Shown here in pieces: positions 41,044-59,557 of a DNA stretch of 64,000 bases (position 1 is the first letter of the stretch; each line of letters opens with the position of its first letter). The DNA lies in NCBI GenBank assembly GCA_038058635.1, contig JBBUAP010000001.1, positions 197,190 to 261,189 on the forward strand, written 5' to 3'. The notes under the pieces are model-generated. The model made no database searches. It was not told the origin of the DNA and was given only the letters and a program-made list of their open reading frames with translations. Made by a program: the position numbers and the translations under genes. Origin of the DNA: Patescibacteria group bacterium. GTDB taxonomy: Bacteria > Patescibacteriota > UBA1384 > 2-12-FULL-50-11.

Positions 41044-43170
41044 TCACCCTAAAGTAACTTCGACGAAGTGTGTTCCTCCGGCGAAGGGGCGGATGACATT
41101 GCCGGTCAGGCGGACGCCGTCGACGATAATTCGATCAATGCCCTTCGAAACCCGAAACGGATTTTGGATTCGAATATGATAATCCGCCCCTCGAAATTGT
41201 CGTGTCACTTCGACCTGTCGCCAATCTTTTGGTAGACACGGATCGATCTTCAACCCACCCAGAACTGGTTGGACCCCGAGAATCTGCTCGAGCATAGCTA
41301 TCCAGAGCATGCCCGCTCCGGTACTACCCCAACCAGAAGACCCTCGCCCGAAATGATGATGCGGAGGTCCATTGATACTATCAGCTACAATGTATGGTTC
41401 GACTCGATAGATGGTCGGTTCGGCCGCTCTTACTTGCGGATTGATCTGCTTCCAAACTCGCTGTGCCTCGTCGCCTTGGCCGATCGAAGCTTTAGCCCAG
41501 ACTAATCTAGCCGAAACACTAGTTACAATGGCGCAGTTGCGACCGCTTCCCGGACTATCAACCGACTCGCAATAATCATCGTTTGCGAGTGGATAGACCG
41601 GTGTGAAATTCAGTGTCCCGTATTTGGTGCCCAGCTTCTGATCGACCGATCGAAGCGCTCCCTTGGCTCGCTCAAGCGTGACTAAACCACCGATAATCAA
41701 CCAAGCTTGGGCCTCGGCGTCGATCTGTCGGGGTTTATTTTTTTGACCAATCTTGCCGTGCGCTGAGTGGATGCCGGCGCTGTAACATCGACCCGATCGA
41801 AGGTGCTGATCGACAGCACTCTTAAGTCTCTCAAGTAATCGGGTGTACCGATCGACGAGTTGATGCTCGCCAAAATGCTCCAGAATTGGGATAGCTTCCC
41901 GCCAATAGTAAGCCACTTCCCCCGTCAACGCCGCTGATTCTAGTGAATCCTCGCCAACCCTATTTTTTATTAGACCCCTCACCGACAGCTGGTCTTGGCA
42001 GTAGTTTAGGGCGCGAATAAAATGATGCAAGACTGTGCCGTCGCCACCGTCGCGGTATTCGACGCGGCGATGAAATAAATCGTAGTCGCCAGTTTCTTTG
42101 AGATAAGCGATAAGCAGTCGACAGAGAGTAGTGGTTGGTTTGACATTATCGAGCTCACCATTTTTGGTTTGGGTTGAAAGGACCGATTCGATGTCAGCGG
42201 CGGTGGTTTGTCCAAGCGACAGACCGGTGATTAGGCGATCTAGATGTGCCTGCTGATTGTGGTCAAGCGAGTTTAAGCTCTGAAACTTCCAAAATTTATT
42301 GAATAACTTGTTCGTGTCCGAATCGGGCGTCTTGATCGTGACGCGACTAAGCCATTCTTGTTGTAGCTCCTCTGTCCGCGCTAAGGATTTAGCAACCGCT
42401 CCGGGATGTTTGAGTAGGGTGATGGATTGTCGGGTGGAGCTCAGATCAAATGTCCGGCCAGTAAACACATTCAAGTGAGTCGTAACATTTTTCCCCAAGG
42501 TCAAATGGTAGCTGATCGTCATCAGAGCATTCTCTCCTGCCGCCGTGCTTCTACCACCCTTCCCTTCGATGACGGCTTGCGGAGCTGAAAAGCTGCCGTA
42601 TTGGCCCAAAAAAGCTTCTTGACTACAATCAAAACTATCAAGAGCGCGGTCACTAGCACAGAAGAAAGTTACGGTTGGGTCGAGGCGATTCTGGCCGACC
42701 AGCATGCCTTTTTCCATCTCAGCTTCATTGACCTTTTCTGGTAAGCCAGCAACAAAGTAAACTGCCAAACGGCGTTTTTTATCCCCGATGTTCTGCAAGC
42801 GTATTTGCCAGACTTCGCCGTCGAATTTGTCAGGCACAAAAACGCTAGCGAAAGCATCGATCTGATCATATTTATAATGGAAATCCGTCACCCCAACTCT
42901 ATGTCGACACTCAAAGGCGTCAAAACGCCCACCGACCGGTTGCCAAGTTAGTGACCAGAACTTATCTGAGTCTAAATCGCGGATATAGACATAGCGTGTC
43001 GTCGGGCTGGTTGGGCCGTCGTAACCAAGGGTTTGGGTAGCTTGGCCGTCTTGCGCAATCTCAAGTCGATAATGCCCATTAGTCAGTAAATTGAACCACG
43101 GTTGTGGCGTATCGGGTCGCCCTATTACAAACTCCTCGCCGTTAGGCGCCAATTCTCCAAATCCCTCCAT
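41044..43170 (-). CDS. GH94-family glycoside phosphorylase-like protein (cellobiose/chitobiose phosphorylase type)
   Basis: The N-terminus EEFVIGRPDTPQPWFNLLTNG...YVYIRDLDSDKFWSLTWQP parallels the cellobiose phosphorylase N-terminus (EYVITTPHTPYPWINYL...YLYVNDGGDVW). 708 aa with an (alpha/alpha)6-type C-terminus. Confidence 0.6.
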   Translation of the reverse strand: MEGFGELAPNGEEFVIGRPDTPQPWFNLLTNGHYRLEIAQDGQATQTLGYDGPTSPTTRYVYIRDLDSDKFWSLTWQPVGGRFDAFECRHRVGVTDFHYKYDQIDAFASVFVPDKFDGEVWQIRLQNIGDKKRRLAVYFVAGLPEKVNEAEMEKGMLVGQNRLDPTVTFFCASDRALDSFDCSQEAFLGQYGSFSAPQAVIEGKGGRSTAAGENALMTISYHLTLGKNVTTHLNVFTGRTFDLSSTRQSITLLKHPGAVAKSLARTEELQQEWLSRVTIKTPDSDTNKLFNKFWKFQSLNSLDHNQQAHLDRLITGLSLGQTTAADIESVLSTQTKNGELDNVKPTTTLCRLLIAYLKETGDYDLFHRRVEYRDGGDGTVLHHFIRALNYCQDQLSVRGLIKNRVGEDSLESAALTGEVAYYWREAIPILEHFGEHQLVDRYTRLLERLKSAVDQHLRSGRCYSAGIHSAHGKIGQKNKPRQIDAEAQAWLIIGGLVTLERAKGALRSVDQKLGTKYGTLNFTPVYPLANDDYCESVDSPGSGRNCAIVTSVSARLVWAKASIGQGDEAQRVWKQINPQVRAAEPTIYRVEPYIVADSINGPPHHHFGRGSSGWGSTGAGMLWIAMLEQILGVQPVLGGLKIDPCLPKDWRQVEVTRQFRGADYHIRIQNPFRVSKGIDRIIVDGVRLTGNVIRPFAGGTHFVEVTLG

Positions 43171-43225
43171 AAACTAATCTTAACCCACTTTTTCCCAGAG
43201 GGGTAATTACTGTTACAATCTTAAT

Positions 43226-44218
43226 ATGCCTCAATTGCGTCAGAATATTGTTACTGGTGAGTGGGTGGTAATTGCGCCCGAGCGATCGAAGCGACCGACT
43301 GATTTTGTTGCCGCTGAATCAATTAAGCCCCAGCTAAAGGCAGAATGCCCATTCTGTACTACTAACGCGTCCGGCGCCTACAATACTCGTCAAAAAGAAT
43401 ACGAATCCAACCTTATCTACGTAGCCCCAAACAAGTTTCCAGCTTTTGTTGAAGATGTTGAGCATTGCAGTCCCCGAACCTTCAAGCTTGAGAATAACTT
43501 TTATAACGCCCGGCCGTCAACAGGGGGACACGATCTAATTGTAGCCAAGGATCACGATCACCAAATTTACGACTTTTCCGAGGAAACTTGGTTTGAGATG
43601 TTGGAAATGGCCCGTCACCGTTACATCTACTGGCGTCAAGATTGCAATACTCGCTACTCAATGCTTATTTACAATCAGGGCGTCAGAGCCGGTGCCTCAA
43701 TCTACCACCCCCACGCCCAACTTTTTGCCAGCAATATCATCCCGAACCAAATCTCACGTGAATTAGACGGGGCGTTGGATTATTTCAGCGACAACGGGTC
43801 GTGTGTCTTCTGCGATCTTGTATCTCACGAACGAGAAGAGAAGGTCCGGGTTCTAACCGAAACTGATGATTTGATTGTCTTCACTTTCTATGCCGCTCGC
43901 TTCCCATTTGAAATTTGGGTTTTGCCAAAAGAGCATCTTGCCAACTTCGCCACCGTTAAACCTGAACTCATTAAATCATTAGCAACTGTGATGAAGGGAG
44001 TTGTTAGTCAGCTGGGCACAACTCTCCAAAATCCATCATTCAATCTTTATTTACACGACCTACCAACTGGCGTTGAACGAGCTGATTATTACCACTGGCA
44101 TATTGAAATTGCGCCACGCGTCTCTACCTACGGCGGTTACGAACTTGGCTCGGGCACGATCATCGATGTTATGAGTCCGGAAGACGCCGCCGACTATTTG
44201 CGGCAGAATAAGGTCTAG
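43226..44218 (+). CDS. GalT-like HIT-superfamily hexose-1-phosphate nucleotidyltransferase / NDP-sugar phosphorylase
   Basis: N-terminal CPFC zinc motif and the HPHAQ HIT-like motif (H-x-H-x-Q). Confidence 0.7.
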   Translation: MPQLRQNIVTGEWVVIAPERSKRPTDFVAAESIKPQLKAECPFCTTNASGAYNTRQKEYESNLIYVAPNKFPAFVEDVEHCSPRTFKLENNFYNARPSTGGHDLIVAKDHDHQIYDFSEETWFEMLEMARHRYIYWRQDCNTRYSMLIYNQGVRAGASIYHPHAQLFASNIIPNQISRELDGALDYFSDNGSCVFCDLVSHEREEKVRVLTETDDLIVFTFYAARFPFEIWVLPKEHLANFATVKPELIKSLATVMKGVVSQLGTTLQNPSFNLYLHDLPTGVERADYYHWHIEIAPRVSTYGGYELGSGTIIDVMSPEDAADYLRQNKV

Positions 44219-44303
44219 AACGGCTTGCTTGTCACCCCTAATTCATCTAAACTTTTGGCAAACGATTAATGATATCTAAAAGCGCTCCAGTAACGAATCT
44301 CGG

Positions 44304-45740
44304 ATGAAAATATTATTTGTTGTTTCGGAAGTGGCGCCCTATGTTAAAACCGGCGGTTTGGGCGAAGTTATGAATGCCTTACCCAAAGAATTACACCGTC
44401 TCGGCCATGATGTCGCAATCTTTATGCCCTTGCACGGTAAGATTGATCGTCAACGCTTTCCGTTACTGCCAATCGGACGGGCAAAAACACTCCGTCTCGG
44501 CCGAAGTAAAATTCCCCATCGATTCATGGCTAGTCTCCTCTCCCAAGTGGTGCCGGTATATTTTTTCGACCAGCCGAAATTGTTTGGACAGCGCGACCAA
44601 GTTTACGGGGGGATTGACGGTAATTATCGCTACCTAGTTTTTAATCAGGCCGTCTTTTCTCTGCTGGAAACTCTCGACTGGACGCCGGATATTATCCATT
44701 GCCACGACTGGCCGTCGGGATTAATCCCGAACTACTTTGCCAACCTACCGGCTCGCTCGAAGCTCAACAATATTAAGACGGTTTTTACTATCCACAACCC
44801 AGCGTTTACCGGTACGACCAATGCCTGGCAGATTGCCCCGGAATTCAAAGATAATGTCGAAACTCCGGTACCGACCGACCGTAATAAAATGAGCTACCTC
44901 AACTTTTTAGAGCGAGGCATCCGTTATGCCGATGTCGTAACAACGGTTTCCGAACCACACGCCGAAGAACTGAAGGAGCCATTAACCGATCATGGCTTGA
45001 GTGATCTTCTCAAGGCCAAGAAGAGACGGTTCTTTGGTATCCGCAACGGCATCGATTACAACATTTTCAACCCGCGGATCGACAAACACTTACCGGTCAA
45101 CTACGACGAAGGCATTCTCCATCGTAAATACGACAATAAACGAGCCCTCCAGCACAGACTTGGTTTGACGGTTGACGATCAGATTCCAATGATTGGTATG
45201 AATACTCGTATCTCCGAGCAGAAAGGTTTTAATTTGCTCTTTGAAGTATTGCCCAATATCTTGGATCTTGGCGTTCAGTTCGTGATAGTCGGTACCGACC
45301 AGGGCGGCTATGTCAAAACCCTGAATGAATTCGCTAAAAAGTATCCAGCCCAATTTGCTTACCGTCCGTATTCAGAGGAGTTGGGGAGTCTGGTATACGC
45401 CGGGTCGGATTTGTTTCTAATGCCGTCTCGCTACGAACCGTCGGGCTTGGGGCAGATGGTCTCGCTTCGTTACGGATCGATTCCATTAGTTCGTCGAACC
45501 GGTGGCTTGGCTAGCACAATCACAAATTACAACCCGAAAAATAATACTGGCATCGGTTTTGTTTTCGATGCTTACACGAGCTCAGCCCTTTTTGTTTCTG
45601 TTAAGCGGGCGTTGCGAGTTTTCCAGAACAAAAAGCGTTGGTGGGAACTGATGCGTCGGGCGATGAACACATCCTATTCTTGGGAGCTACCGGCCAAGAA
45701 ATACATTAAGGCTTACCAACTCGCGGTCAAAAAGTTTTGA
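44304..45740 (+). CDS. glgA: glycogen synthase (GT5)
   Basis: KTGGLGEV N-terminal motif and a GT-B C-terminal domain. Confidence 0.85.
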   Translation: MKILFVVSEVAPYVKTGGLGEVMNALPKELHRLGHDVAIFMPLHGKIDRQRFPLLPIGRAKTLRLGRSKIPHRFMASLLSQVVPVYFFDQPKLFGQRDQVYGGIDGNYRYLVFNQAVFSLLETLDWTPDIIHCHDWPSGLIPNYFANLPARSKLNNIKTVFTIHNPAFTGTTNAWQIAPEFKDNVETPVPTDRNKMSYLNFLERGIRYADVVTTVSEPHAEELKEPLTDHGLSDLLKAKKRRFFGIRNGIDYNIFNPRIDKHLPVNYDEGILHRKYDNKRALQHRLGLTVDDQIPMIGMNTRISEQKGFNLLFEVLPNILDLGVQFVIVGTDQGGYVKTLNEFAKKYPAQFAYRPYSEELGSLVYAGSDLFLMPSRYEPSGLGQMVSLRYGSIPLVRRTGGLASTITNYNPKNNTGIGFVFDAYTSSALFVSVKRALRVFQNKKRWWELMRRAMNTSYSWELPAKKYIKAYQLAVKKF

Positions 45741-45772
45741 CTCTGACTGGCTAAATTGAGAGAATCGTATTA

Positions 45773-47266
45773 ATGCGCTGGGCGAACTTTCTCCACATCT
45801 ACCAACCGGCCGATCAGCAGCCCGATATTCTTGAAGCCATTGTCACCCAAAGTTACCGTCCTTTACTCGAAGGAATTCGTCGCCATCCTCGTGTTCGTCT
45901 GACTTTAAATGTCAGCGCCGCCTTGCTCGAACTTTTTGACCACTTCGGTTATTCAGATCTCATTGACGACCTCCGCACACTTGGTCGAGAAGGCCGAGTG
46001 GAATTCACTGGCACCGCCAAGTATCATACTTTCTTGCCACTATTGGAGGAAGATGAGATTCGTCGCCAGATAATTATCAACAATGAGGCAACAAAACATT
46101 TTCTGGGTGACGCGTATCAGCCGAAGGGATTTTTTCCACCAGAGATGGGCTATCAGGCTAACCTGCCGAAAATCTTGGCAGAGTTGGGATTCGAATGGGT
46201 GATCCTTGATGAAATTGCCCTCGGGACTCAGCCGGATATGGTAGATTACACAAAAACTTACACTATCGAGGGGACTAAATTGGGTGTTTTCTTCCGTCAG
46301 CGCCGAACCAGCAATATGATTATGAGCGCTTTAGTCCGCTCACCCGAGTCATTTGCGGAGGCGATGGAAGAAGATCTGAAATCTGATCGTTACTTGCTTA
46401 CCGGTATGGATGGCGAGACTCTCGGTCATCACCGTCCGGGGATGGAAAAAATATTCTTCGAGTTATTGGAGATTCCTGCTATTGAGCCGGTAACGGTCTC
46501 TGACTTACTGCGAATCTATCCCGAAACGGTTGCCGTTACGCCGGTGGCGTCGACTTGGGCATCAAGCCCCGAAGACATTAAGAGAAATGTCCAATTTTTG
46601 TCTTGGCACGATCCGGAAAACCCGATTCACGGCTGGCAGTGGGAATTTGTCGCCCTAGTTTTGAAGGAATTTAGGATGCTCGACCAGAGTAACCCCGCTT
46701 GGACAACCGTTCGTCAGAAGCTCGATCAAGCTCTGGCGTCTGACCACTTTTGGTGGGCGTCGGCTAAGCCCTGGTGGGGATTGGAGATGATTGAGGTTGG
46801 CGCTTATCATTTGCTCGATATAATCGAAACTATTCCCGATGTTGACACGAGTACAATTGATCAAGCCCGTCATTACTACGACCAGATTGTTTCGACGGCC
46901 TTTCAGTGGCAACGATCAGGAAAGATTCGCCAAATGACCAAAGAGCAACAACTCTCCCACCGGATTCCCCTTAAAGATCGGACCGTAGGCAAAGGCGGGG
47001 CCGAAGCTGGTGTGTATGAAGCTTTTGTAGCGATGATGCGGGAACGTGAAAAAGTCGCCACTACTGCTGGGGAGTATGAGAAGGCGATATTGTGGCGAGA
47101 TGCCGTCTATAAACTCGAGAATGGCTGGGATATTTACGATTCGATCAATGTCATTGACTTACTCCGGATCGAAATACCTAACCAAGAAGTCGAGAAGACT
47201 ATTCGGGCCTATAAAGACCGTTACTACCAAATCCGTGGCGGCCAACCAGAGCAACGCGGGAGCTAG
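45773..47266 (+). CDS. GH57-family alpha-glucan-active enzyme (amylopullulanase/branching-enzyme type)
   Basis: LHIYQP (GH57 region I, the H-Q-P motif), YHTFLP, and PPEMGY acidic catalytic-region candidates. Confidence 0.7.
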   Translation: MRWANFLHIYQPADQQPDILEAIVTQSYRPLLEGIRRHPRVRLTLNVSAALLELFDHFGYSDLIDDLRTLGREGRVEFTGTAKYHTFLPLLEEDEIRRQIIINNEATKHFLGDAYQPKGFFPPEMGYQANLPKILAELGFEWVILDEIALGTQPDMVDYTKTYTIEGTKLGVFFRQRRTSNMIMSALVRSPESFAEAMEEDLKSDRYLLTGMDGETLGHHRPGMEKIFFELLEIPAIEPVTVSDLLRIYPETVAVTPVASTWASSPEDIKRNVQFLSWHDPENPIHGWQWEFVALVLKEFRMLDQSNPAWTTVRQKLDQALASDHFWWASAKPWWGLEMIEVGAYHLLDIIETIPDVDTSTIDQARHYYDQIVSTAFQWQRSGKIRQMTKEQQLSHRIPLKDRTVGKGGAEAGVYEAFVAMMREREKVATTAGEYEKAILWRDAVYKLENGWDIYDSINVIDLLRIEIPNQEVEKTIRAYKDRYYQIRGGQPEQRGS

Positions 47267-47272
47267 GAAGTT

Positions 47273-48133
47273 ATGACTAAGTTGGTTTTTACGCCGGGCT
47301 TGAAATCTAAGCTGAAGGACCTTCTTGGGAGCAACATCGTCAAGGTCGATTACGAGTCTCCAGTTACTGATACGGCGCTGGTTGCAAAGCTGACATTAGC
47401 AGACGGTCGGAAGGTACGATACAATTCTCGTCCCGGACAATCTGGAGTTACCACCTACGAATTGCCAAAATACCTAAGTCAGTTCAACCTTACTAGGGAC
47501 AAAACAGCAATTCTCGAGCCTATAGCTTTCATGTCTGACGAGCAAGCCATCATTTACCCACACATCGAAGGTAATACCTTAAAAAAATTATTTCCCGATG
47601 TAGCAGTAGATCCTTGGTTCGTTAGAATGGGTCAGTTACTGCGCGCGATTCACAATGCTCCGCCACCCGAATTTCTAGATAGAGTTTCCGCGGAAGATAT
47701 ACTGAAGCCGCTGATAGCTAAGGGTTTTGAGACTGCAAATACAGCACAATTAGTTAAACTGCTTGAAGGGGTGCCTCTTGATAACGTCTGCCATGGCGAT
47801 CCTGACCCATGCAATTGGCTGGTAGACGAAGATTCCGACCTTCTAACACTGATCGATTTTTCAGACGCCGGAAGATCAAGTGCAATGCACGATATCGCTA
47901 TTCTCTTATGCCACTCACGTCTTTCTGGCGCACCGGCTAACTTTGAGGAAGCTTTTTGGTCCGGCTACGGTCCAATTGATCAAGATGTGCAACACTATTT
48001 GAAGCTTTGGTTGGGTGTGGTTTACTTACGTAATGCTTACTACATTGAAACCTGGATTCCAGCTGGTGATCCCAAAAAGCCGAAGTTGATGAGCGAGCGC
48101 CTGGGTATGGCAGAAGAGTTAATGAAACAATGA
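47273..48133 (+). CDS. APH/ChoK-fold phosphotransferase (sugar kinase-like, possible maltokinase)
   Basis: Brenner motif HGDPDPCN and IDFSDAG (DFx). Positioned inside the alpha-glucan cluster. Confidence 0.55.
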   Translation: MTKLVFTPGLKSKLKDLLGSNIVKVDYESPVTDTALVAKLTLADGRKVRYNSRPGQSGVTTYELPKYLSQFNLTRDKTAILEPIAFMSDEQAIIYPHIEGNTLKKLFPDVAVDPWFVRMGQLLRAIHNAPPPEFLDRVSAEDILKPLIAKGFETANTAQLVKLLEGVPLDNVCHGDPDPCNWLVDEDSDLLTLIDFSDAGRSSAMHDIAILLCHSRLSGAPANFEEAFWSGYGPIDQDVQHYLKLWLGVVYLRNAYYIETWIPAGDPKKPKLMSERLGMAEELMKQ

Positions 48134-49509
48134 AAGTCGCTTTTATCGCCAGTGAATGCACCCCGCTAGCTAAGGTTGGTGGCTTGGGTGATGTCATCGG
48201 CGCTTTGCCAAAAGCTTTGGCTGAATTAGAGGTTGAGCCAATTATTCTGCTGCCCTACTACCGATCGATCGAAAAATACAAACCAACCAAGACCGATATA
48301 GAGCTCGAAACTACTGACGGTGATGGCAAAATAATTTGGTCGGTTTTCGAAACTGTTTTGCCGGAAACTGCCATCAGAGTCTTACTTTTACGACATCCTG
48401 ATTTTTGGATTGACGAAGTTTATGACTCGCCTAACGACCCCTTTCGTTTCGCGTCTTTCAGTATCGCCGCCGCCGCCCTTGCCCAGAAACTCAAGGTTAA
48501 TGTTGTCCACTGCCACGACTGGCACACGGCTTTGGCGTCGGTCGTACTCAAGGGTCGAGGGATTCCGACAGTAATTACCATTCATAATGTCCATCCAGGT
48601 ACGGGTCTAGACCAGATCTCCTCCGAACAACTCGGCACTCTAGGCATCGATACGACCAAGCTCGCCGCCGCTAAAGATGATCGGTCGAACTCATTTAGTT
48701 TGCTTGCCCAAGGTGTTGCCGCCGCCAATTTTATTACCACTGTCAGCCCGACCCACGCTGAAGAAATCAAAGCCGAAGCATTTGGCGGATCGCTGGCTGA
48801 ACTTTTTCGCCGACGATCAAAAGATCTCGAGGGCATCGTTAACGGCATCGATGTTGAAGTTTTTAATCCGGTCACCGATTCCAACATCGCTGAGAACTAT
48901 TCAGCCGAAAATCTTACTGGCAAGACGGCTTGTCGACAGGATTTGGAGCGCGCTGTTGGTTGGGAGCACTCCGACGCTCCGATCCTTGGTGTCGTCACCC
49001 GACTAACCAACCAGAAGGGGTTGGATCTAATTGCCTCAATCCTCCCAGATTTGGCGGCTGCCGGAACGAGGGTGATTATTCTTGGCACCGGAGAAGAGGC
49101 GATCGAAAGTAAGCTGACCAATTTAGCGGCGAAGTATGCCGATAATCTGAAAGCCCTGCTGCGCTTCGATGCCGTTTTAGCTCAAAAAATTTACGCCGGG
49201 TCAGACATGTTTTTGATGCCGTCGCGTTTTGAGCCTTGCGGATTAGGCCAGATGATCGCTATGCGCTACGGTACTCTGCCCGTCGTTAATAAAACCGGTG
49301 GTCTGGCCGATACTGTCATCGATAACCAAACGGGGTTCGTCTTAGAGCCGTTGTCGGCGAAGAATTTACTTACAACTATTGAGCGCGCTCTGGCTGTCTG
49401 GCACGACCACTCTAGCTGGCGAACGATGCAACTGACGGCGATGAAACAGGATTTTTCCTGGACCAAATCAGCCAAGCGCTATATCGAGATCTACAAAAAG
49501 TTGGTCTAG
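48130..49509 (+). CDS. second GlgA-like glycosyltransferase (GT5/GT4 glycogen synthase paralog)
   Basis: KVGGLGDV motif. Start overlaps the upstream stop (ATGA). Confidence 0.8.
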   Translation: MKVAFIASECTPLAKVGGLGDVIGALPKALAELEVEPIILLPYYRSIEKYKPTKTDIELETTDGDGKIIWSVFETVLPETAIRVLLLRHPDFWIDEVYDSPNDPFRFASFSIAAAALAQKLKVNVVHCHDWHTALASVVLKGRGIPTVITIHNVHPGTGLDQISSEQLGTLGIDTTKLAAAKDDRSNSFSLLAQGVAAANFITTVSPTHAEEIKAEAFGGSLAELFRRRSKDLEGIVNGIDVEVFNPVTDSNIAENYSAENLTGKTACRQDLERAVGWEHSDAPILGVVTRLTNQKGLDLIASILPDLAAAGTRVIILGTGEEAIESKLTNLAAKYADNLKALLRFDAVLAQKIYAGSDMFLMPSRFEPCGLGQMIAMRYGTLPVVNKTGGLADTVIDNQTGFVLEPLSAKNLLTTIERALAVWHDHSSWRTMQLTAMKQDFSWTKSAKRYIEIYKKLV

Positions 49510-49991
49510 GCCGGAAGCATAAAGACTTGGCTTAAAGCGATTGCCACCGCGTCGGCGGCGTCGTCGCCGAGTTTCTTTTTTTCGTCGACACTAAAATAGT
49601 GACGAACGAAATTCTGAACATCTTTTTTCTTGGCTTTGCCGTTGCCGAGCAAGACTTTTTTTAAGCGCAGCGGGGCAATTTCCACAATCTCAATGTTGGC
49701 CTGTTGGGCGGCCAGCAGGACCACCCCGCGGGCCTGACCAACGGCAAATGCCGTCTTAGCGTTGTTGGCAAAGAAAATCATCTCGATGGCAATCAGATCC
49801 GGCTTAATTTCGTTAAAGCGCTTGACCATCTCGTAGTATATAAAGGAAAGCTTCTGCGGCTCCGGCGAATTGGGCGTGGTGACGATGCAGTCGTAATGAA
49901 TTAGATTCGGCTTGCCGCCGATAATCTCAATCAACCCCAAGCCCAGTCTCCCCGACCCCGGGTCAATCCCCAAAATTCTTTTCCCCCTCAT
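49506..49991 (-). CDS. ruvC: crossover junction endodeoxyribonuclease RuvC
   Basis: ILGIDPGSGRLGLGL N-terminal motif and RNase H-like fold. Confidence 0.9.
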   Translation of the reverse strand: MRGKRILGIDPGSGRLGLGLIEIIGGKPNLIHYDCIVTTPNSPEPQKLSFIYYEMVKRFNEIKPDLIAIEMIFFANNAKTAFAVGQARGVVLLAAQQANIEIVEIAPLRLKKVLLGNGKAKKKDVQNFVRHYFSVDEKKKLGDDAADAVAIALSQVFMLPA

Positions 49992-49998
49992 CGTTTAC

Positions 49999-50727
49999 TC
50001 ACCCTAACAGGTTTTCGGCGATTTCGAAGTTGCTGGCGACTCGCGTCACATCATCAAGCTCTTCCAACGCTTCCGCCAATTTGATAATTTTTTCCGCTAA
50101 TTTCTCATCGGTAATTGGGACGCTGGCGATGGGATGATACACAAAGCTAATGTCGTGACTCTCAAATCCAGTTTCCGCCAATTGGCGCCGAACATGCTCG
50201 AGCTCTTTCGGGTCGGTGTAAACAAAAACTTTTCCATCAGCGGTTTCAAAATCTTGGGCTCCGGCATCAATCGCCGCCAACTCCAACTCGTCTGGTCGGT
50301 CAGTTTCAAAGACAATTTGGCCTCGTCGTTTAAATAGATAGCCAACCGAACCCGATTCAGCCAATTTGCCGCCGTTCTTATTTAAGACCGCCCGAATGTC
50401 GCCAGTTGATCGATTATGATTGTCGGTGGCGGCCTCAATCAAAAAACCGGTTCCGCCCGGGCCGTAGGCCTCGAAGACAATCTCTTCCAGGTTGGCGGCG
50501 TCGCTACCCCTAGCTTTGTCAATCGCCCGTTCGATATTGTCCTTAGGCATATTAGCCCCGTGGGCTTGGTCGACGGCCACCCGTAATTGAAAATTCATAC
50601 CAGGGTCAGTACCGTGCCGAGCAGCCACCGTAATTGCTCGAGATAATTTACTAAAAACCGCCCCTCGTTTGGCGTCGGCCGCCCCCTTCTGATGTTTTAT
50701 TGAACTCCACTTGGAATGACCGCTCAT
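49999..50727 (-). CDS. yebC: YebC/PmpR family DNA-binding transcriptional regulator
   Basis: MSGHSKWSSIKHQKG N-terminus and the rest of the protein match the family closely. Confidence 0.9.
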   Translation of the reverse strand: MSGHSKWSSIKHQKGAADAKRGAVFSKLSRAITVAARHGTDPGMNFQLRVAVDQAHGANMPKDNIERAIDKARGSDAANLEEIVFEAYGPGGTGFLIEAATDNHNRSTGDIRAVLNKNGGKLAESGSVGYLFKRRGQIVFETDRPDELELAAIDAGAQDFETADGKVFVYTDPKELEHVRRQLAETGFESHDISFVYHPIASVPITDEKLAEKIIKLAEALEELDDVTRVASNFEIAENLLG

Positions 50728-50885
50728 TGTCTCGATTCTACTCTGAAAATCTCAGCCTAACCACCCCCAAATCCCGATTTCAAAACTAATCAGCTCCCAC
50801 TGTACCGTATGGGTTTAAACCCATACGAGAGACTATAATGTATCTCCGTGTGCGGAAGGATAGTGCGTTGTCAGACTGTCTACTA

Positions 50886-51785
50886 TCACAGGCTGGTTTG
50901 GTAGGAATAGCCCTCGGGGGTGATGTCGAAACGGATCGTGCCGGATTGGTCGGTGCGTAAGACCGGAATGCCGAGTTGCTGGAGATGTTCGAGCGTGATT
51001 TGGTGAGGGTGGCCGTAGCGATTATTCTGGCCGGCCGAGATAATAGCGACTTTCGGCGAGACCGCCTGCAAAAACGGTACCGACGAGCTGGTATTACTGC
51101 CGTGATGGCCAACTTTCAAGATATCGGCGTGTTTAACAATCCCCCGCGCTAGCATATTGGCTTCGTGTTCGCTTTCGGCGTCGCCTGTTAACATGGCGGT
51201 CGTTGGGCCGTACTGCCAGTAAGTGACGACGCTAGCGTCGTGAGGATTTTCCGGCGCCCGAGCGGCAAAACTTTCCAGCGGATAAAGGGTGATGCCAGTT
51301 AAACCACTGACAGTAAATGTTTTGCCGGCAGTGACATCGATGATTTTAATCTTTTTTTCCGCTACTAACGCCACAAATTTTTTATAGGTCGCCGAGTCGT
51401 AAGTAGCGCCCGAAATCCAAATTTCATCCACTTTATAGCGCTCCAACACGCTGTATATTCCCGAAAGATGGTCGGCGTGGTTGTGGGTGACGATGATCAG
51501 ATCAATCTCTTTGTCGGTCAGCGGCATTGCTTTGGAGAGTTGCGACAGAACCGAGGTGTTCGGTCCGCCGTCGATTAAAACTTGGTGTCCGTCGCTAGTG
51601 TCAAACAGAGCTGAATCGCCCTGGCCGACATCGAAAAACCATAGTCTTAAAGCGCTATCGCGCTCGGCCGCTTGAAATTGGGAGGTGCCAAAAGTAATAA
51701 GAAGCAAGGCGATAACGGCCAGAACAAATTGTAGCGCTTTGTTCTTCCCGAGAAAGCGGAGGTAGCCAGTGTCGCTAGCTGGCAT
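50886..51785 (-). CDS. comEC: ComEC C-terminal MBL-fold domain protein, encoded as a separate ORF
   Basis: HNHADHLSG metallo-beta-lactamase motif with its own N-terminal TM. The start was taken at the internal MPASD. Confidence 0.65.
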   Translation of the reverse strand: MPASDTGYLRFLGKNKALQFVLAVIALLLITFGTSQFQAAERDSALRLWFFDVGQGDSALFDTSDGHQVLIDGGPNTSVLSQLSKAMPLTDKEIDLIIVTHNHADHLSGIYSVLERYKVDEIWISGATYDSATYKKFVALVAEKKIKIIDVTAGKTFTVSGLTGITLYPLESFAARAPENPHDASVVTYWQYGPTTAMLTGDAESEHEANMLARGIVKHADILKVGHHGSNTSSSVPFLQAVSPKVAIISAGQNNRYGHPHQITLEHLQQLGIPVLRTDQSGTIRFDITPEGYSYQTSL

Positions 51786-52974
51786 CTTTTTCTTCGACGG
51801 CGAGTCGGTCAAACAAATCGTATTGCAGAGGCCGTCGGACATTGAGCCACTCCAACCCGCCGACAATAACGATCATCAATCCGGCAACAATCCACACCGG
51901 TAAAGTTAAATTAGTTGAAGCGAATTGCCAGCTTGCCAGTTTTTCGCTCGAAAAAATAATCCAAGTCAAAAGCGGCCAGCTGGCCAACATGATCGCATTG
52001 CCGATGACGGGAATAACCATCAACAGCGCGCCGATAATGCCGATCGTCATCACCAGCGGAACTAGCGGTAAAACCAAGATATTGGACAGCGGTGAAATCA
52101 CCGATAGTCGCTCAAAGTGAGCGATAATCAGCGGTGCGGTTAATAAAATCGCCGAGAAAGTTTCCGCTAATATATGTCGCAAAATCACTGGCAATTTTGT
52201 TCGCATCAGCAGGCGGTTTAGGTACGGCGAGAGGCGAACCAGCCCGTAAGTGGCGGCGACCGAAAGCTGGAAGCCAACATCGAAGATAATCTTCGGCTCG
52301 AACATCACCAAAACCGCCGCTGCAAATATCAAGATGTTGACCGCACGGCTGGGGCGACCCAAGTATTTCGCTAAAATGACCGTCAAGGCCATCGCCGCCG
52401 CCCGCAAGATCGAGGCCGGGGCACCGGTAATAATAACAAAGAGCAGAATCAGCGCTGACGATACCCAGAGAGCTTTACGGCCGATGAGCGGCCAGAAAAT
52501 ACTGGTAGTGTTGGCAGTCAAAATCGTTAAATTGTAGCCAGAGACGGCGATGATATGGGTTAAGCCGACGGCGCGGAAGATGTCGATCAAATCTTTATCG
52601 AGTTTAATTCGGTTGCCCAATAGGATGCCAGACATCAGTGAGCCGTGCGGCTCGGGCAGAGCCAGAGAAATTTTGTCGACGATCAGATCCCGCAAATTAC
52701 CCAGCGCACCTGCCAACTGGCCGATAACGGTTAGATTGAGCCAGACTTCGCCGGTAGTCACTTGCCACAGAAATGCCCCGAACGACAAGCCAAAAAGAGT
52801 AAAGGCGATGGTTTCGATCGGTTCGTCTTGGCCGCTCAAGGCAACTATTAGCCAGATGGCGGTGACCCAGCCGATAATTAAGCGATCGATTTCAAAGTAC
52901 GATCCGATCACCGCCCCAGCAATTACTGCCAGGCAAGTCAGAGCAAATTTTCGGGAAGGGGTTAGCCACTCCAT
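51775..52974 (-). CDS. comEC: ComEC/Rec2 competence-channel domain protein (membrane part)
   Basis: Multi-TM with HIIAVSGYNLTIL, the competence-domain signature. Confidence 0.7.
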   Translation of the reverse strand: MEWLTPSRKFALTCLAVIAGAVIGSYFEIDRLIIGWVTAIWLIVALSGQDEPIETIAFTLFGLSFGAFLWQVTTGEVWLNLTVIGQLAGALGNLRDLIVDKISLALPEPHGSLMSGILLGNRIKLDKDLIDIFRAVGLTHIIAVSGYNLTILTANTTSIFWPLIGRKALWVSSALILLFVIITGAPASILRAAAMALTVILAKYLGRPSRAVNILIFAAAVLVMFEPKIIFDVGFQLSVAATYGLVRLSPYLNRLLMRTKLPVILRHILAETFSAILLTAPLIIAHFERLSVISPLSNILVLPLVPLVMTIGIIGALLMVIPVIGNAIMLASWPLLTWIIFSSEKLASWQFASTNLTLPVWIVAGLMIVIVGGLEWLNVRRPLQYDLFDRLAVEEKDAS

Positions 52975-55988: not shown

Positions 55989-57050
55989 ATGCGCGTAATT
56001 ACTTGGAATGTGAGAAGGGCAACGGAAACAAGTGCTGTCTGGAAAATTTTAACTGATATGAATCCAGATATTGCATTGCTCCAGGAGGTAACGAGCATCC
56101 CAGAAGTTATCAAGGAATCATTTAAAGACGGTATCAAATTTCACAAAGCCATCGGTAAAACTGGAAAACCTCAACAGTTTGGTACTGCAGTTCTGGTGAA
56201 GGGGAAAATCATTGACGAGCTACCCCTATCTTCCGAATATGATTGGGTAAATCACGAGCTTGAGTACTTCGCTGGGAACCTCGTAGCTTGTGTTGTCCAG
56301 CCTACCGGATATCCAAAACTCAATGTCGTTTCTATTCATAGCCCTGCTTGGCCAATAGACACTTCTAAACATCAGAATATTGATATTGAAACAATAAAGC
56401 TGAAACAAAATCCGAAGCTATGGGTTACTGAAATTCTTTGGTCTGCTCTGAAGAATGCGAATTTAGTAGATGTTCCATGGATTGCGGGTGGCGACCTAAA
56501 CAGTTCAGAAACTTTTGACTCAACTTTTGGTGGAGGAAACAGGGAATTTCTCGATAGGATGGGAGCATTAGGTTTTACTGAATGTCTTAGAAAACACCAC
56601 GGTAAGTTGGTCCCGACATTTAAAAATCCGAGGGATAAAAGAATAACTCATCAAATAGACCACCTCTTTGTGACTAGTCCACTCAACTCAACACTAGAAG
56701 CATGTAGCATAGGAGACGAATCGGCTATTTTCGGGGGATCGGTCAGCGACCATTTACCAATAATCGCGGACTTTAAGTACTCACAAGACATACCACCCTC
56801 TATAGAAAATTTCATCGCTAAGAATAACTGGGTCTTTGCCAAAACCATGGCCGAGATACCTCACTATTATATTGTGAGAGATAATTTATCGGAAAATGAT
56901 AAGAAACTATTTGATGAATTTGATGTGTTTATAAAAAACAATGGCTACACAAAAGAATTCTACTCCAAGCAATACACCTATTTTGATGTAGGGAAATTCA
57001 GATATTGGGTAATAGAGAACATTCTAAACAGAGCCGAGTTAGAAATTTAA
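55989..57050 (+). CDS. endonuclease/exonuclease/phosphatase (EEP) family nuclease with ~85-aa C-terminal extension
   Basis: VITWNVR start, GGDLNS, SDHLPI: the EEP catalytic motifs. AT-rich codon usage. First gene of the island. Confidence 0.7.
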   Translation: MRVITWNVRRATETSAVWKILTDMNPDIALLQEVTSIPEVIKESFKDGIKFHKAIGKTGKPQQFGTAVLVKGKIIDELPLSSEYDWVNHELEYFAGNLVACVVQPTGYPKLNVVSIHSPAWPIDTSKHQNIDIETIKLKQNPKLWVTEILWSALKNANLVDVPWIAGGDLNSSETFDSTFGGGNREFLDRMGALGFTECLRKHHGKLVPTFKNPRDKRITHQIDHLFVTSPLNSTLEACSIGDESAIFGGSVSDHLPIIADFKYSQDIPPSIENFIAKNNWVFAKTMAEIPHYYIVRDNLSENDKKLFDEFDVFIKNNGYTKEFYSKQYTYFDVGKFRYWVIENILNRAELEI

Positions 57051-57133
57051 AGGCGCGCAAGTAACGACTACTGATAGGACCGACGATTTTTCTATGAATT
57101 GAACCTGTTTTACGATACAATCTAGTCAAGACA

Positions 57134-58831: not shown

Positions 58832-58920
58832 GCACGATGGGGAATAACAATTTGCTGGGACCCAGCGACCGTAAAAACTTTCCTGTAACTCAAGTCCTGT
58901 TGGTAGTAAAATCGGACTAG

Positions 58921-59103: not shown

Positions 59104-59243
59104 ACAGTAACAATGACTGAATTTGCTGGCACCTAGCCCGCTGTTTGCTACCCGAACATTTCCCGTAAAATATGCTCTTGACAGTGTAATAGACTGCAGT
59201 GGTAGGGTGAGGATGCAGTTTACTGCCTAGAAAGGAGAAGAGA

Positions 59244-59515: not shown

Positions 59516-59557
59516 CTATGAATCCAACCTGTTTAGCAGTACAATTTGGGCAGATTA

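What the first reader, a model, noticed from the sequence alone, without database searches (positions are those of the whole stretch)
41044..49509. Alpha-glucan/glycogen cluster containing a GalT-like HIT transferase and an APH-fold kinase between two GlgA paralogs
The gene order is GH94-like phosphorylase (divergent), GalT-like HIT nucleotidyltransferase (CPFC, HPHAQ), GlgA, GH57, APH/ChoK-fold kinase (HGDxxxxN, DFS), then a second GlgA-like GT with ATGA coupling. No glgC (ADP-glucose pyrophosphorylase) is present in the cluster. A sugar kinase plus a GalT-type NDP-sugar:sugar-1-P exchange enzyme could supply the NDP-glucose or maltose-1-P donor instead. The second GlgA could be GlgM-like. 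Together this would be a Leloir-like or maltokinase-type route into glycogen not described for this lineage.
Basis: inference. Interest (0 to 1): 0.55.

Follow-up and report, generated by a model that had tools for sequence, protein, structure and literature searches.

The report
CPR glycogen operon with ADP-glucose-phosphorylase-like gene
A tiny groundwater bacterium (Patescibacteria) carries a glycogen-making operon in which the usual ATP-consuming activating enzyme (GlgC) is missing and a relative of plant ADP-glucose phosphorylase, a sugar phosphorylase and an unusual kinase sit in its place, hinting at a cheaper or reversible way to feed glucose into storage polymer.

Summary
The gene order is confirmed: GH94-like phosphorylase (-), then GalT-like HIT enzyme, GlgA1, GH57, APH-fold kinase and GlgA2 on the + strand, in a Patescibacteria MAG. 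There is no GlgC, PGM, GH13 or GT35 in the window or 10 kb either side.

- **GalT-like protein.** It scores higher against Arabidopsis ADP-glucose phosphorylase At5g18200 than against true GalT. In 23 of 40 non-CPR genome loci its homologues lie directly beside glgA, and in one beside GlgE and GlgM. In CPR it heads a variable glycan island next to RuvC, often with GH94 or GH130 phosphorylases.
- **GlgA paralogs.** Both are intact GT5 GlgA, not GlgM.
- **Kinase.** It is a near-orphan APH-fold small-molecule kinase, not Mak-like. It recurs after GH57 in diverged CPR clusters.
- **GH57.** It resembles 4-alpha-glucanotransferase or amylopullulanase types more than canonical branching enzymes.

Best reading (inferred): glucose-1-phosphate from phosphorolysis is exchanged with ADP-glucose by the HIT enzyme and polymerised by the GlgAs. 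The direction of that exchange and the kinase substrate are unresolved. The maltokinase and GlgM idea is not.

The parts
41044..43170 (-). GH94-like glycoside phosphorylase, 708 aa, transcribed divergently from the operon
   Evidence: Pfam GH94_b-supersand and Glyco_hydro_94 match. The best solved relatives are chitobiose and cellobiose phosphorylases, E 1e-64. The catalytic Asp492 of 1V7V aligns to an Asp in 'EDSLE'. The protein is about 100 aa shorter than characterised GH94 enzymes. No NCBIfam equivalog matches. GH94 homologues lie within 10 kb of the GalT-like gene in 6 of 40 CPR loci.
43192..43219 (+). Promoter-like site (TTCCCA-16-TACAAT with TG) in the 55-bp divergent intergenic region
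   Evidence: Consensus scan only, with the sequence checked. Promoter-like sites in the region are not enriched over shuffles, so this is weak evidence.
43226..44218 (+). GalT-like HIT nucleotidyltransferase, 330 aa, of the At5g18200 (ADP-glucose phosphorylase) type
   Evidence: Pfam GalP_UDP_transf N and C domains plus HIT match. The best PDB hits are 1Z84/2H39 (At5g18200), E 1.6e-48 and 169 bits, against E. coli GalT at 1e-24 and 91 bits. Identity is 30% to At5g18200 and 25% to E. coli GalT. C41-P-F-C44, H102 and H161-P-H163-A-Q165 are kept. Family invariants are listed. All 85 homologous ORFs in fetched loci score higher against At5g18200 than against EcGalT.
44304..45740 (+). GlgA1, GT5 glycogen/starch synthase, 478 aa
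   Evidence: TIGR02095 scores 462.6 bits against a cutoff of 328. KTGGL, H161, R300, K305 and E377 (E. coli numbering) are invariant in alignment A3.
45773..47266 (+). GH57 alpha-glucan-active enzyme, 497 aa, of a CPR-wide subfamily
   Evidence: Pfam GH57 matches. E124 and D213 align to the catalytic E123 and D214 of the T. litoralis 4-alpha-glucanotransferase. Foldseek ranks 1K1W/1K1X and the S. marinus amylopullulanase above GH57 branching enzymes. There is no BE_C domain. Homologues at 60-67% identity occur across Patescibacteria. GlgA is immediately upstream in 50 of 55 testable loci.
47273..48133 (+). APH-fold small-molecule kinase, 286 aa, near-orphan
   Evidence: Pfam APH matches. H174-G-D176...N181 and D195-F-S are kept, and the beta-3 Lys is replaced by Arg49. 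The AF2 model has pLDDT 91. Foldseek and the PDB profile search give APH, Mph, PsiK and ChoK-type kinases, not Mak or NahK. Only 3 representative clusters score below 1e-30 among 1.84 billion proteins. Those orthologues occupy the same position in L085 and L086. More distant APH genes follow GH57 in L090, L098, L104, L165 and L169.
48130..49509 (+). GlgA2, second GT5 glycogen synthase, 459 aa, start overlapping the kinase stop (ATGA)
   Evidence: TIGR02095 scores 477 bits, while TIGR02149 (GlgM type) scores 72.7 bits against a cutoff of 302. It is 33% identical to GlgA1. Catalytic residues are intact. The overlap is read directly.
49552..49580 (+). Terminator-like hairpin (8-bp GC-rich stem plus T run), 43 nt after the GlgA2 stop
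   Evidence: Consensus scan. Its position fits the end of a 43226-49509 operon, but such sites are not enriched over shuffles.

Best explanation
This is a self-contained alpha-glucan (glycogen-like) operon of a Patescibacteria bacterium. It was assembled from two modules that are usually separate in CPR genomes.

**Module 1.** This is the head of a CPR 'glycan island'. It comprises an At5g18200-type HIT enzyme with a divergently transcribed GH94 phosphorylase.

**Module 2.** This is the CPR-wide GlgA-GH57 pair, here extended by an APH-fold kinase that is translationally coupled to a second GlgA.

**Proposed flow**
1. GH94 phosphorolyses a beta-glucoside to alpha-glucose-1-phosphate. This step is inferred from family membership.
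2. The HIT enzyme interconverts glucose-1-phosphate + ADP and ADP-glucose + Pi through a His163-AMP intermediate. The activity is inferred from the nearest characterised relative and from gene neighbourhoods. The nucleotide specificity is not shown.
3. GlgA1 and GlgA2 polymerise ADP-glucose into alpha-1,4-glucan and regenerate ADP. Family membership and catalytic residues are shown.
4. GH57 transfers, trims or branches chains. The fold and the catalytic pair are shown. The activity is unknown.

In this scheme ADP is catalytic and no ATP is spent, so the route replaces GlgC.

**Kinase.** It phosphorylates a hydroxyl of a sugar or oligoglucan tied to the GlgA-GH57 module. My best guess is that it produces a sugar-1-phosphate such as glucose-1-phosphate, which would also push the glucose-1-phosphate/Pi ratio towards synthesis. 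This is speculation.
For: - **Local content.** The gene content and the lack of GlgC, PGM and GT35 nearby are established.
- **HIT enzyme family.** It is nearer to At5g18200 than to GalT: 169 against 91 bits, and 30% against 25% identity. It shares the N-x-F/Y-P-A and GG(Y/F)E(L/I)G(S/T)G motifs. All 85 homologous ORFs behave the same way.
- **Published activity.** At5g18200 is described as an ADP-glucose phosphorylase with high affinity for ADP-glucose (PMC6329318; PMC4136846).
- **Neighbourhood outside CPR.** Homologues are directly adjacent to bona fide glgA in 23 of 40 non-CPR loci. The named groups are Thermotogota, Elusimicrobia, Zixibacteria, Eisenbacteria, Planctomycetota, Caldisericota, Latescibacterota, Leptospirillia and Clostridiales. 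One locus places it beside GlgE and GlgM, and GlgM also uses ADP-glucose plus glucose-1-phosphate.
- **No classical glgC.** No ORF in the 80 GalT-like-centred loci scored above 62 bits against E. coli GlgC. The four NTP_transferases scanned against TIGR02091 scored 64-124 bits against its cutoff of 425. The 82 GH57-centred loci gave no GlgC or NTP_transferase hit at all.
- **Phosphorylases nearby.** Glycoside phosphorylases that make sugar-1-phosphates sit near the HIT gene in CPR: GH94 in 6 of 40 loci and GH130 in 3 of 40.
- **Conserved order.** The same gene order is kept in L085 and L086, although the kinase is only 33-35% identical.
- **No galactokinase.** No GalK homologue appears in any fetched locus.
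Against: - **Thermodynamics (established knowledge).** Because ADP is recycled, the net reaction glucose-1-phosphate + glucan(n) -> glucan(n+1) + Pi is the reverse of glycogen phosphorylase. It needs a glucose-1-phosphate/Pi ratio above roughly 0.3, which is unusual in cells. The plant enzyme's equilibrium favours ADP + glucose-1-phosphate (recalled from McCoy et al. 2006, which I could not read here).
- **Weak linkage within CPR.** True GlgA lies within 10 kb of the HIT gene in only 5 of 40 loci. The HIT gene lies near GH57 in only 2 of 82 loci, and those two have identical maps. Its most constant neighbour is RuvC, in 32 of 40 loci.
- **Coexistence with a pyrophosphorylase.** In L048 and L058 a sugar-1-phosphate nucleotidyltransferase-PGM fusion sits beside the HIT-GlgA pair, so the HIT enzyme does not always replace a pyrophosphorylase.
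- **GalE nearby.** GalE is present in the orthologous cluster L085 and in 5 of 40 CPR islands.
- **Limited identity.** Identity to the characterised enzyme is only 30%.
- **Untested.** Whether glgC is absent from the whole genome was not checked.
Confidence: 0.42

Rival explanations
1. ADP-glucose is made by a GlgC or another pyrophosphorylase encoded elsewhere. The HIT enzyme runs in its favoured direction, ADP-glucose + Pi -> ADP + glucose-1-phosphate. It could act as a safety valve or recycler of ADP-glucose. With a pyrophosphorylase it could form an ATP + Pi -> ADP + PPi cycle. With a GlgA running backwards it could form a two-step phosphorolytic route for mobilising the glucan, since this cluster has no GT35 phosphorylase.
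For: Plant ADP-glucose phosphorylase is regarded as degradative and was used to deplete ADP-glucose (PMC4136846). Thermodynamics favours phosphorolysis (established knowledge). L048 and L058 carry an NTP_transferase-PGM fusion next to the HIT-GlgA pair. The window has no GT35, whereas 20 of 82 related GlgA-GH57 loci do. Two GlgA paralogs only 33% identical could have opposite roles.
Against: No pyrophosphorylase lies within the window or 10 kb either side, nor in any of the 82 GH57-centred CPR loci. Co-transcribing an ADP-glucose-destroying enzyme with two synthases is wasteful for a very small genome. Physiological reversal of GT5 synthases has not been described.
Confidence: 0.3
2. The HIT protein is a genuine Leloir-type hexose-1-phosphate uridylyltransferase, or a general NDP-hexose exchange enzyme. 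It serves the GT4 and GT2 surface-glycan transferases of the CPR glycan island. Its position next to GlgA here is a by-product of conserved synteny (RuvC-GalT-like ... RecG).
For: It passes the TIGR00209 galT cutoff (116.2 against 102.1 bits). In CPR it is adjacent to RuvC in 32 of 40 loci, to GT4 in 16 of 40, and GalE is in the island in 5 of 40 and in L085. Public annotations call it GalT.
Against: No galactokinase or GalM homologue was found in the window or in any fetched locus. It is closer to At5g18200, which is reported not to act as a GalT (PMC6329318). Outside CPR the only recurrent neighbour is GlgA, in 23 of 40 loci. It scores far below the PRK11720 cutoff (135 against 448 bits).
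Confidence: 0.18
3. The kinase makes maltose-1-phosphate as Mak does, and GlgA2 acts like GlgM.
For: An APH-fold kinase lies inside an alpha-glucan cluster. Mak also has the APH fold (established knowledge).
Against: GlgA2 is GT5, with TIGR02149 at 73 bits against a cutoff of 302. The kinase is 286 aa, gives no maltokinase family hit, and no Mak appears among the top 60 PDB profile hits or the top 50 Foldseek hits. No GlgE, TreS or GH13 gene is in the window. A real GlgE-GlgM pair looks different (L053).
Confidence: 0.04

Closest known systems
Arabidopsis At5g18200 ADP-glucose phosphorylase (PDB 1Z84, 2H39), class I GalT branch of the HIT superfamily
   Same: It has the same two-half HIT fold, the same HxHxQ motif with a nucleophilic His, and the same Cys-x-x-Cys/His metal site. 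It is the best solved match (E 1.6e-48, 30% identity). Both share the GG(Y/F)E(L/I)G(S/T)G loop, which differs in E. coli GalT.
   Different: The window gene is bacterial and operonic with two GlgA genes and next to a GH94 phosphorylase. The plant enzyme is cytosolic, has no known partner and is viewed as degradative. Activity and nucleotide specificity of the CPR protein are untested.
Classical bacterial GlgC-GlgA-GlgB glycogen pathway
   Same: It uses GT5 GlgA synthases with all catalytic residues and has a glucan-remodelling enzyme in the operon.
   Different: There is no GlgC and no GH13 GlgB locally. A GH57 of a non-canonical subfamily takes the GlgB position, and a HIT enzyme takes the position glgC often occupies. 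There are two GlgA paralogs and an embedded kinase.
Bifidobacterial GNB/LNB pathway (GH112 phosphorylase + NahK APH-fold anomeric kinase + GalT + GalE)
   Same: The same logic of parts applies: a glycoside phosphorylase, an APH-fold kinase and a HIT/GalT-type nucleotidyltransferase, with GalE in the orthologous cluster L085.
   Different: The families differ: GH94 rather than GH112, a class I At5g18200-like enzyme rather than class II GalT, and a kinase not detectably related to NahK. The output here is a storage glucan rather than catabolism. The analogy is a lead, not a tested relationship.
GlgE pathway (TreS-Mak-GlgE, GlgM)
   Same: It is also an alpha-glucan route that bypasses direct GlgA elongation and uses an APH-fold kinase. 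A GalT-like homologue sits beside GlgE and GlgM in Ignavibacteria locus L053.
   Different: The window has no GlgE or TreS. GlgA2 is not GlgM, and the kinase is not Mak-like.
Two GlgA isoenzymes of Synechocystis (GlgA1/GlgA2)
   Same: Two diverged GT5 synthases occur in one organism. In Synechocystis the isoenzymes have different activities and roles in glycogen synthesis (abstracts of PMC3956634 and PMC13456619).
   Different: Here the two are in one operon, separated by GH57 and a kinase, and GlgA2 is translationally coupled to the kinase.
GH57 4-alpha-glucanotransferase of Thermococcus litoralis (1K1W) and GH57 branching enzymes (3N8T, 1UFA, 5WU7)
   Same: It has the GH57 fold with the Glu/Asp catalytic pair.
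   Different: It is 497 aa and lacks both the BE_C and the AmyA C-terminal domains. Its CSR-1 reads H-I-Y-Q-P. The Glu-to-Asp spacing of about 90 residues is like the transferase and amylopullulanase types. Its activity is uncharacterised.

Membership tests
At5g18200-type ADP-glucose phosphorylase (class I GalT branch, HIT superfamily) | Tandem GalT N- and C-terminal HIT-like half domains | tested here: met
   PF01087, PF02744 and PF01230 all match above their cutoffs.
At5g18200-type ADP-glucose phosphorylase (class I GalT branch, HIT superfamily) | HxHxQ motif with a nucleophilic second His, and a Cys-x-x-Cys/His zinc site | tested here: met
   H161-P-H163-A-Q165, C41-P-F-C44 and H102 align to HSHSQ, CPFC and GFHD of 1Z84. 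H161, H163 and Q165 are invariant in 25 homologues.
At5g18200-type ADP-glucose phosphorylase (class I GalT branch, HIT superfamily) | Closer to At5g18200 than to bona fide GalT enzymes | tested here: met
   It scores 169 bits against At5g18200, compared with 91 (E. coli), 89 (P. aerophilum) and 65 (human). All 85 homologous ORFs score higher against At5g18200.
At5g18200-type ADP-glucose phosphorylase (class I GalT branch, HIT superfamily) | Catalyses ADP-glucose + Pi <-> ADP + glucose-1-phosphate and lacks GalT activity | not testable with these tools
   This needs an enzyme assay. Only gene-neighbourhood support is available: adjacency to glgA in 23 of 40 non-CPR loci.
Leloir GalT (EC 2.7.7.12) | Scores above the curated equivalog cutoffs | tested here: inconclusive
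   TIGR00209 scores 116.2 against 102.1 and passes. PRK11720 scores 134.6 against 448 and fails.
Leloir GalT (EC 2.7.7.12) | Genomic partnership with galactokinase (and GalE, GalM) | tested here: not met
   No GalK or GalM homologue was found in the window or in any fetched locus. GalE occurs in only some CPR islands, not in this window.
GlgA, GT5 ADP-glucose-type glycogen synthase (both paralogs) | TIGR02095 above cutoff, K-x-G-G-L motif, and catalytic E377, R300, K305 and H161 | tested here: met
   Scores are 462.6 and 477 bits against a cutoff of 328. The residues are invariant in alignment A3 with E. coli GlgA. Donor specificity is not testable here.
GlgM (GT4 maltose-1-phosphate synthase, TIGR02149) | TIGR02149 above its cutoff of 302 bits | tested here: not met
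   GlgA2 scores 72.7 bits and GlgA1 scores 21.3 bits. A true GlgM from L053 scores 492 bits.
Maltokinase Mak/Pep2 | Mak-specific N-terminal cap domain, a length of about 440 aa, and sequence or fold affinity to Mak structures | tested here: not met
   The protein is 286 aa and matches only PF01636. No maltokinase NCBIfam hit was found. Mak is absent from the top 60 PDB profile hits and the top 50 Foldseek hits.
APH/ChoK-fold small-molecule kinase (PF01636) | Bilobal kinase fold with the HxDxxxxN catalytic loop and a DF(G/S) metal-binding Asp | tested here: met
   H174-G-D176, N181 and D195-F are invariant across 7 GH57-linked homologues. The AF2 model has pLDDT 91, and Foldseek gives probability 1.0 to APH(9), Mph(2'), PsiK and ChoK-family kinases. 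The beta-3 Lys is replaced by Arg49.
GH57 glycogen branching enzyme | BE_C C-terminal domain, the branching-enzyme equivalog, and Glu-to-Asp spacing of about 170 residues | tested here: not met
   No PF09210 hit was found. NF041133 scores 25 bits against a cutoff of 1000. E124 and D213 are about 90 residues apart and align to the E123 and D214 of the 4-alpha-glucanotransferase. Foldseek ranks the transferase and the amylopullulanase first. The spacing rule is recalled from the GH57 literature.
GH57 (family level) | GH57 catalytic domain with a Glu nucleophile and an Asp acid/base | tested here: met
   PF03065 scores 107.8 bits. E124 and D213 are invariant in 24 homologues and align to the catalytic residues.
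GH94 glycoside phosphorylase | N-terminal supersandwich plus (alpha/alpha)6 catalytic domain with a catalytic Asp | tested here: met
   Both Pfam domains match. An Asp aligns to Asp492 of chitobiose phosphorylase 1V7V. Substrate and phosphorolytic activity are not testable here. The preceding Trp of the 'DWND' motif is deleted.
GlgC (ADP-glucose pyrophosphorylase) in the cluster | NTP_transferase plus LbH protein matching TIGR02091 | tested here: not met
   None is present in the window or 10 kb either side. The rest of the genome was not examined.

The most novel reading that the evidence does not exclude
Many bacteria, including genome-reduced Patescibacteria, may make ADP-glucose without ATP or GlgC. 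They would run a HIT-family ADP-glucose phosphorylase in reverse on glucose-1-phosphate delivered by glycoside phosphorylases (GH94, GH130). In this lineage a new APH-fold kinase may also supply glucose-1-phosphate and ADP directly from glucose and ATP. This would be a previously unrecognised entry into glycogen synthesis, and the first physiological role for the ADP-glucose phosphorylase family.
Probability: 0.25. Interest if true: 0.78.

Novelty: new variant of a known kind. Interest (0 to 1): 0.55.

Why it matters
**Open question.** Where ADP-glucose comes from when GlgC is absent or deleted has long been argued for plants (PMC4136846), and, as I recall, for bacteria too. The physiological role of the ADP-glucose phosphorylase family is also unknown.

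**What this adds.** The glgA/HIT gene pairing recurs across many phyla. This compact CPR operon lacks glgC locally. Together they give a concrete hypothesis that can be tested genetically and biochemically. Neither the 2024 Chem Rev review of prokaryotic alpha-glucan enzymes nor any other paper found in the searches mentions it.

**Consequences if the HIT enzyme links glucose-1-phosphate and ADP-glucose**
- Many 'GalT' annotations in CPR and other phyla would need correcting.
- Energy budgets for storage-polymer synthesis in ultra-small symbionts would change.
- A new kinase family tied to glucan metabolism would be defined.

**If it is only a degradative safety valve.** The cluster would then be an ordinary glycogen operon with unusual accessories.

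Tried and rejected
**Ideas rejected**
1. GlgA2 as GlgM. NCBIfam scores rule it out.
2. Kinase as Mak/Pep2 or NahK. There is no sequence, profile or fold preference for them.
3. GH57 as a canonical branching enzyme. This is not supported, although a branching role cannot be excluded.
4. Kinase as a widespread family. It is not. The word-indexed search found only the protein itself. The exhaustive search found 3 clusters below 1e-30.

**Checks that could not be completed**

5. Genome-wide glgC.
7. McCoy et al. 2006 was not held. Its kinetic and equilibrium values are quoted from memory only.

**Literature searches that found nothing useful**

8. Searches for a bacterial ADP-glucose phosphorylase, for TM0895/TM0896, for DUF4921/DUF4931 and for CPR glycogen found nothing relevant. 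Several hits for 'ADP-glucose phosphorylase' were misnomers for GlgC.

**Weak supporting scan**

9. The promoter/terminator scan is not enriched over shuffles. Only the positions of two sites are suggestive.

Full report
**Observation**

The six ORFs are real and intact at the reported coordinates. Pfam and NCBIfam give the following:

| Coordinates | Strand | Assignment |
|---|---|---|
| 41044-43170 | - | GH94-like protein, 708 aa |
| 43226-44218 | + | GalT-like two-half HIT protein |
| 44304-45740 | + | GT5 GlgA (TIGR02095 463 bits, cutoff 328) |
| 45773-47266 | + | GH57 protein |
| 47273-48133 | + | APH-fold kinase |
| 48130-49509 | + | second GT5 GlgA (477 bits) |

The quoted motifs are present: CPFC, HPHAQ, HGDxxxxN and DFS, plus the ATGA overlap. 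Spacing along the + strand is tight:
- GalT-like to GlgA1: 85 nt.
- GlgA1 to GH57: 32 nt.
- GH57 to kinase: 6 nt.
- Kinase to GlgA2: a 4-nt overlap.

A promoter-like site lies just upstream of the GalT-like start and a hairpin plus T-run lies 43 nt after GlgA2. This fits one operon, but the scans themselves are not above chance.

The organism is a Patescibacteria (CPR) MAG. The records carrying it are named Hain_H43_01um.

**Surroundings**

Precomputed Pfam hits for every called gene from about 10 kb left of the window to 10 kb right of it show no NTP_transferase/GlgC, PGM, GH13 or GT35. E. coli GlgC, GlgB, GlgX and GlgP find nothing in the window. The cluster is bounded by RecG on one side and by RuvC-YebC-MBL-ComEC on the other.

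**The GalT-like protein**

Its best solved relative is Arabidopsis At5g18200, at E 1.6e-48, 169 bits and 30% identity. It is well ahead of E. coli GalT (91 bits, 25% identity), P. aerophilum GalT and human GALT. At5g18200 is reported to act as an ADP-glucose phosphorylase rather than a GalT (PMC6329318; PMC4136846).

The zinc-site residues and the H161-x-H163-x-Q165 motif are conserved. The window protein shares with At5g18200 the GG(Y/F)E(L/I)G(S/T)G loop, where E. coli GalT has VGYEMLAE.

A scan of one genome per GTDB species returned 557 confirmed relatives, and I examined the best 80. All 85 homologous ORFs in fetched loci score higher against At5g18200 (median 195 bits) than against E. 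coli GalT (median 92 bits).

In the 40 non-CPR loci:
- The gene is directly adjacent to a bona fide glgA in 23. The named groups are Thermotogota including the cultured Fervidobacterium thailandense, Elusimicrobia, Zixibacteria, Eisenbacteria, Planctomycetota, Caldisericota, Latescibacterota, Leptospirillia and Clostridiales.
- In an Ignavibacteria locus it is followed by a GlgE-like gene and a true GlgM (TIGR02149, 492 bits).
- No ORF in the 80 GalT-like-centred loci scored above 62 bits against E. coli GlgC. The NTP_transferases scanned stay far below the glgC cutoff.
- No locus has a GalK or GalM homologue.

The recurrent partners are therefore enzymes that consume ADP-glucose, and for GlgM also glucose-1-phosphate. 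This is the strongest evidence that the family handles ADP-glucose and glucose-1-phosphate in bacteria.

**Context within CPR**

In CPR the context differs. The gene is adjacent to RuvC in 32 of 40 loci, within a conserved ComEC-MBL-YebC-RuvC-GalT-like block. It opens a variable glycan island that runs up to RecG. That island contains:
- GT4, adjacent in 16 of 40 loci, and GT2 and a pyruvyl transferase in L037, the one island scanned in detail.
- GalE, in 5 of 40.
- GlgA-like genes, in 5 of 40.
- GH94 phosphorylases, in 6 of 40.
- GH130 phosphorylases similar to beta-1,2-mannobiose phosphorylase, in 3 of 40.

The neighbouring glycoside phosphorylases all release sugar-1-phosphates. This suits an enzyme that converts sugar-1-phosphate plus NDP into NDP-sugar.

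**The GlgA-GH57 core**

The GH57 protein belongs to a strongly conserved 497-aa family, 60-67% identical across Patescibacteria and annotated as hypothetical. In 82 GH57-centred loci:

| Feature | Count |
|---|---|
| GlgA immediately upstream | 50 of 55 testable |
| Short GT35-like phosphorylase nearby | 20 of 82 |
| Second GlgA downstream | 8 of 58 |
| APH-fold gene downstream | 5 of 58 |
| GalT-like gene nearby | 2 of 82 (identical gene maps) |
| GlgC or NTP_transferase nearby | 0 of 82 |

The window therefore fuses two modules that are usually separate. Its relatives L085, L086 and L036 do the same.

The GH57 keeps the catalytic pair E124 and D213, which align to E123 and D214 of the T. litoralis 4-alpha-glucanotransferase. 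By fold it is nearest that enzyme and an amylopullulanase, ahead of GH57 branching enzymes. It lacks the BE_C domain. Calling it a branching enzyme is unproven.

**The two GlgAs**

They are 33% identical to each other and 33% and 36% identical to E. coli GlgA. Both keep KxGGL, H161, R300, K305, E377 and an aromatic residue at the adenine-stacking position. Neither is GlgM-like.

**The kinase**

It is almost an orphan:
- The word-indexed search of 5.8 billion proteins found only the protein itself.
- The exhaustive search of 1.84 billion representatives found three clusters below 1e-30.
- Those two relatives, 33-35% identical, lie between GH57 and a second GlgA with the same 4-bp overlap.
- More distant APH genes (22% identity to L090) follow GH57 in L090, L098, L104, L165 and L169.

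The AF2 model is confident, with pLDDT 91. Foldseek and a PDB profile search both place it among small-molecule APH kinases: corramycin, aminoglycoside, macrolide, hygromycin, PsiK and LicA. Neither Mak nor NahK appears among the top hits.

The catalytic HGD...N and DF motifs are invariant. The beta-3 lysine is replaced by Arg49 in the three orthologues and is not conserved in the wider group. The substrate cannot be assigned. The constant partner of the kinase is the GlgA-GH57 pair, not the GalT-like gene.

**Mechanism**

The best-supported reading is this:
1. GH94 delivers alpha-glucose-1-phosphate by phosphorolysis.
2. The HIT enzyme equilibrates glucose-1-phosphate + ADP with ADP-glucose + Pi through a histidyl-AMP intermediate.
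3. The two GlgAs consume ADP-glucose.
4. GH57 remodels the chains.

Shown: gene content, family membership, catalytic residues and conserved neighbourhoods. Inferred: every activity, the nucleotide specificity and the direction of flux.

The main objection is thermodynamic. With ADP recycled, the net reaction is the reverse of glycogen phosphorylase. It needs an unusually high glucose-1-phosphate/Pi ratio, and the plant enzyme favours phosphorolysis (recalled from McCoy et al. 2006, not readable here). Hence a serious rival: glgC lies elsewhere, and the HIT enzyme recycles or limits ADP-glucose, or forms a two-step phosphorolytic route with a reversible GlgA. In support, two non-CPR loci carry a nucleotidyltransferase-PGM fusion beside the HIT-GlgA pair.

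A kinase making glucose-1-phosphate from glucose and ATP would supply both substrates of the HIT enzyme and ease the thermodynamic problem. The bifidobacterial pathway of phosphorylase, NahK, GalT and GalE is a functional analogy. Nothing here tests this idea.

**Novelty**

The enzyme families are known. The following are not described in the papers I could search, including a comprehensive 2024 review of prokaryotic alpha-glucan enzymes:
- The recurrent pairing of an At5g18200-type gene with glgA.
- The role of that gene as the head of a CPR glycan island.
- An APH-fold kinase family embedded in GlgA-GH57 modules.

I rate this a new variant of a known kind, of moderate interest. The novel part rests on comparative genomics only.

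Noticed in passing
window 55989-64000 (continues beyond the window; L089): This is a lower-GC stretch (0.41-0.44 against about 0.49). It holds Exo_endo_phos, GmrSD_N, RadC, a type I R-M HsdM, a Fic protein and HsdS, with HsdR just past the window end. It looks like a defence island.
   Followed up: partly
L005-L044 (CPR genome loci); window 49506-52974: The block ComEC-MBL-YebC-RuvC-GalT-like is conserved across Patescibacteria. RuvC is adjacent to the GalT-like gene in 32 of 40 loci. In the window and in L005-L009 the glycan island is inverted relative to this block.
   Followed up: yes
L106, L114, L115, L119, L120, L125, L129, L135, L137, L142, L145, L150, L153-L155, L160, L164, L166-L168; P0208 locus: A short 'Phosphorylase' (PF00343) gene flanks the GlgA-GH57 pair in 20 of 82 CPR loci. 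It is 496 aa at the one locus with called genes (P0208), much shorter than the 815-aa E. coli GlgP. It is absent from the window.
   Followed up: no
L053:9887-14525 (Ignavibacteria MAG): A GalT-like gene is followed by a GlgE-like gene (GLGE_C, GlgE_dom_N_S) and a true GlgM (TIGR02149, 492 bits). This is a second kind of ADP-glucose-using context for the family.
   Followed up: partly
L058:536-13328 (Caldisericota) and L048:5990-12502 (Clostridiales): Proteins of 837-840 aa fuse a sugar-1-phosphate nucleotidyltransferase (with an LbH domain) to a PGM/PMM. They lie next to GalT-like-GlgA. L058 also has three GH57 genes (one with BE_C, one of the 4-alpha-glucanotransferase type), a PGM and a PGI in a row.
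   Followed up: partly
window 47273-48133 (residue 49); L085, L086: The canonical ATP-binding beta-3 lysine of the kinase fold is replaced by arginine in all three orthologues. It is His, Ala or Arg in the more distant GH57-linked APH genes. The catalytic loop and the metal-binding Asp stay invariant.
   Followed up: partly
window 45773-47266 (residues 8-12) and homologues P0139-P0258: The first GH57 conserved region reads H-I-Y-Q-P, with an invariant Tyr10, instead of the usual HxHQP. Several JGI records name members of this family 'ribosome-associated translation inhibitor RaiA', which looks like a misannotation.
   Followed up: no
L091:11582-12733, L112, L123: A conserved 383-aa protein with no Pfam or NCBIfam hit lies directly downstream of GH57 in several CPR loci, in the position the kinase occupies in the window.
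   Followed up: no
L090:7938-8429: A NUDIX hydrolase gene lies immediately upstream of GlgA-GH57-APH-GlgA in a Patescibacteria MAG. Some NUDIX enzymes hydrolyse ADP-sugars (EcASPP acts on ADP-glucose), so it may be another ADP-glucose-controlling accessory.
   Followed up: no
L007, L017, L031 (adjacent to the GalT-like gene); L086:8531-9493: GH130 genes similar to beta-1,2-mannobiose phosphorylase (274 bits, below the equivalog cutoff) sit next to the GalT-like gene in some CPR. This suggests the HIT enzyme may also take mannose-1-phosphate.
   Followed up: partly
window 30815-31954: An isolated GT4 glycosyltransferase lies 12 kb from the cluster, next to an AI-2E transporter-family gene. Its weak best match is N-acetylglucosaminyl phosphatidylglycerol synthase, at 100 bits against a cutoff of 480.
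   Followed up: no
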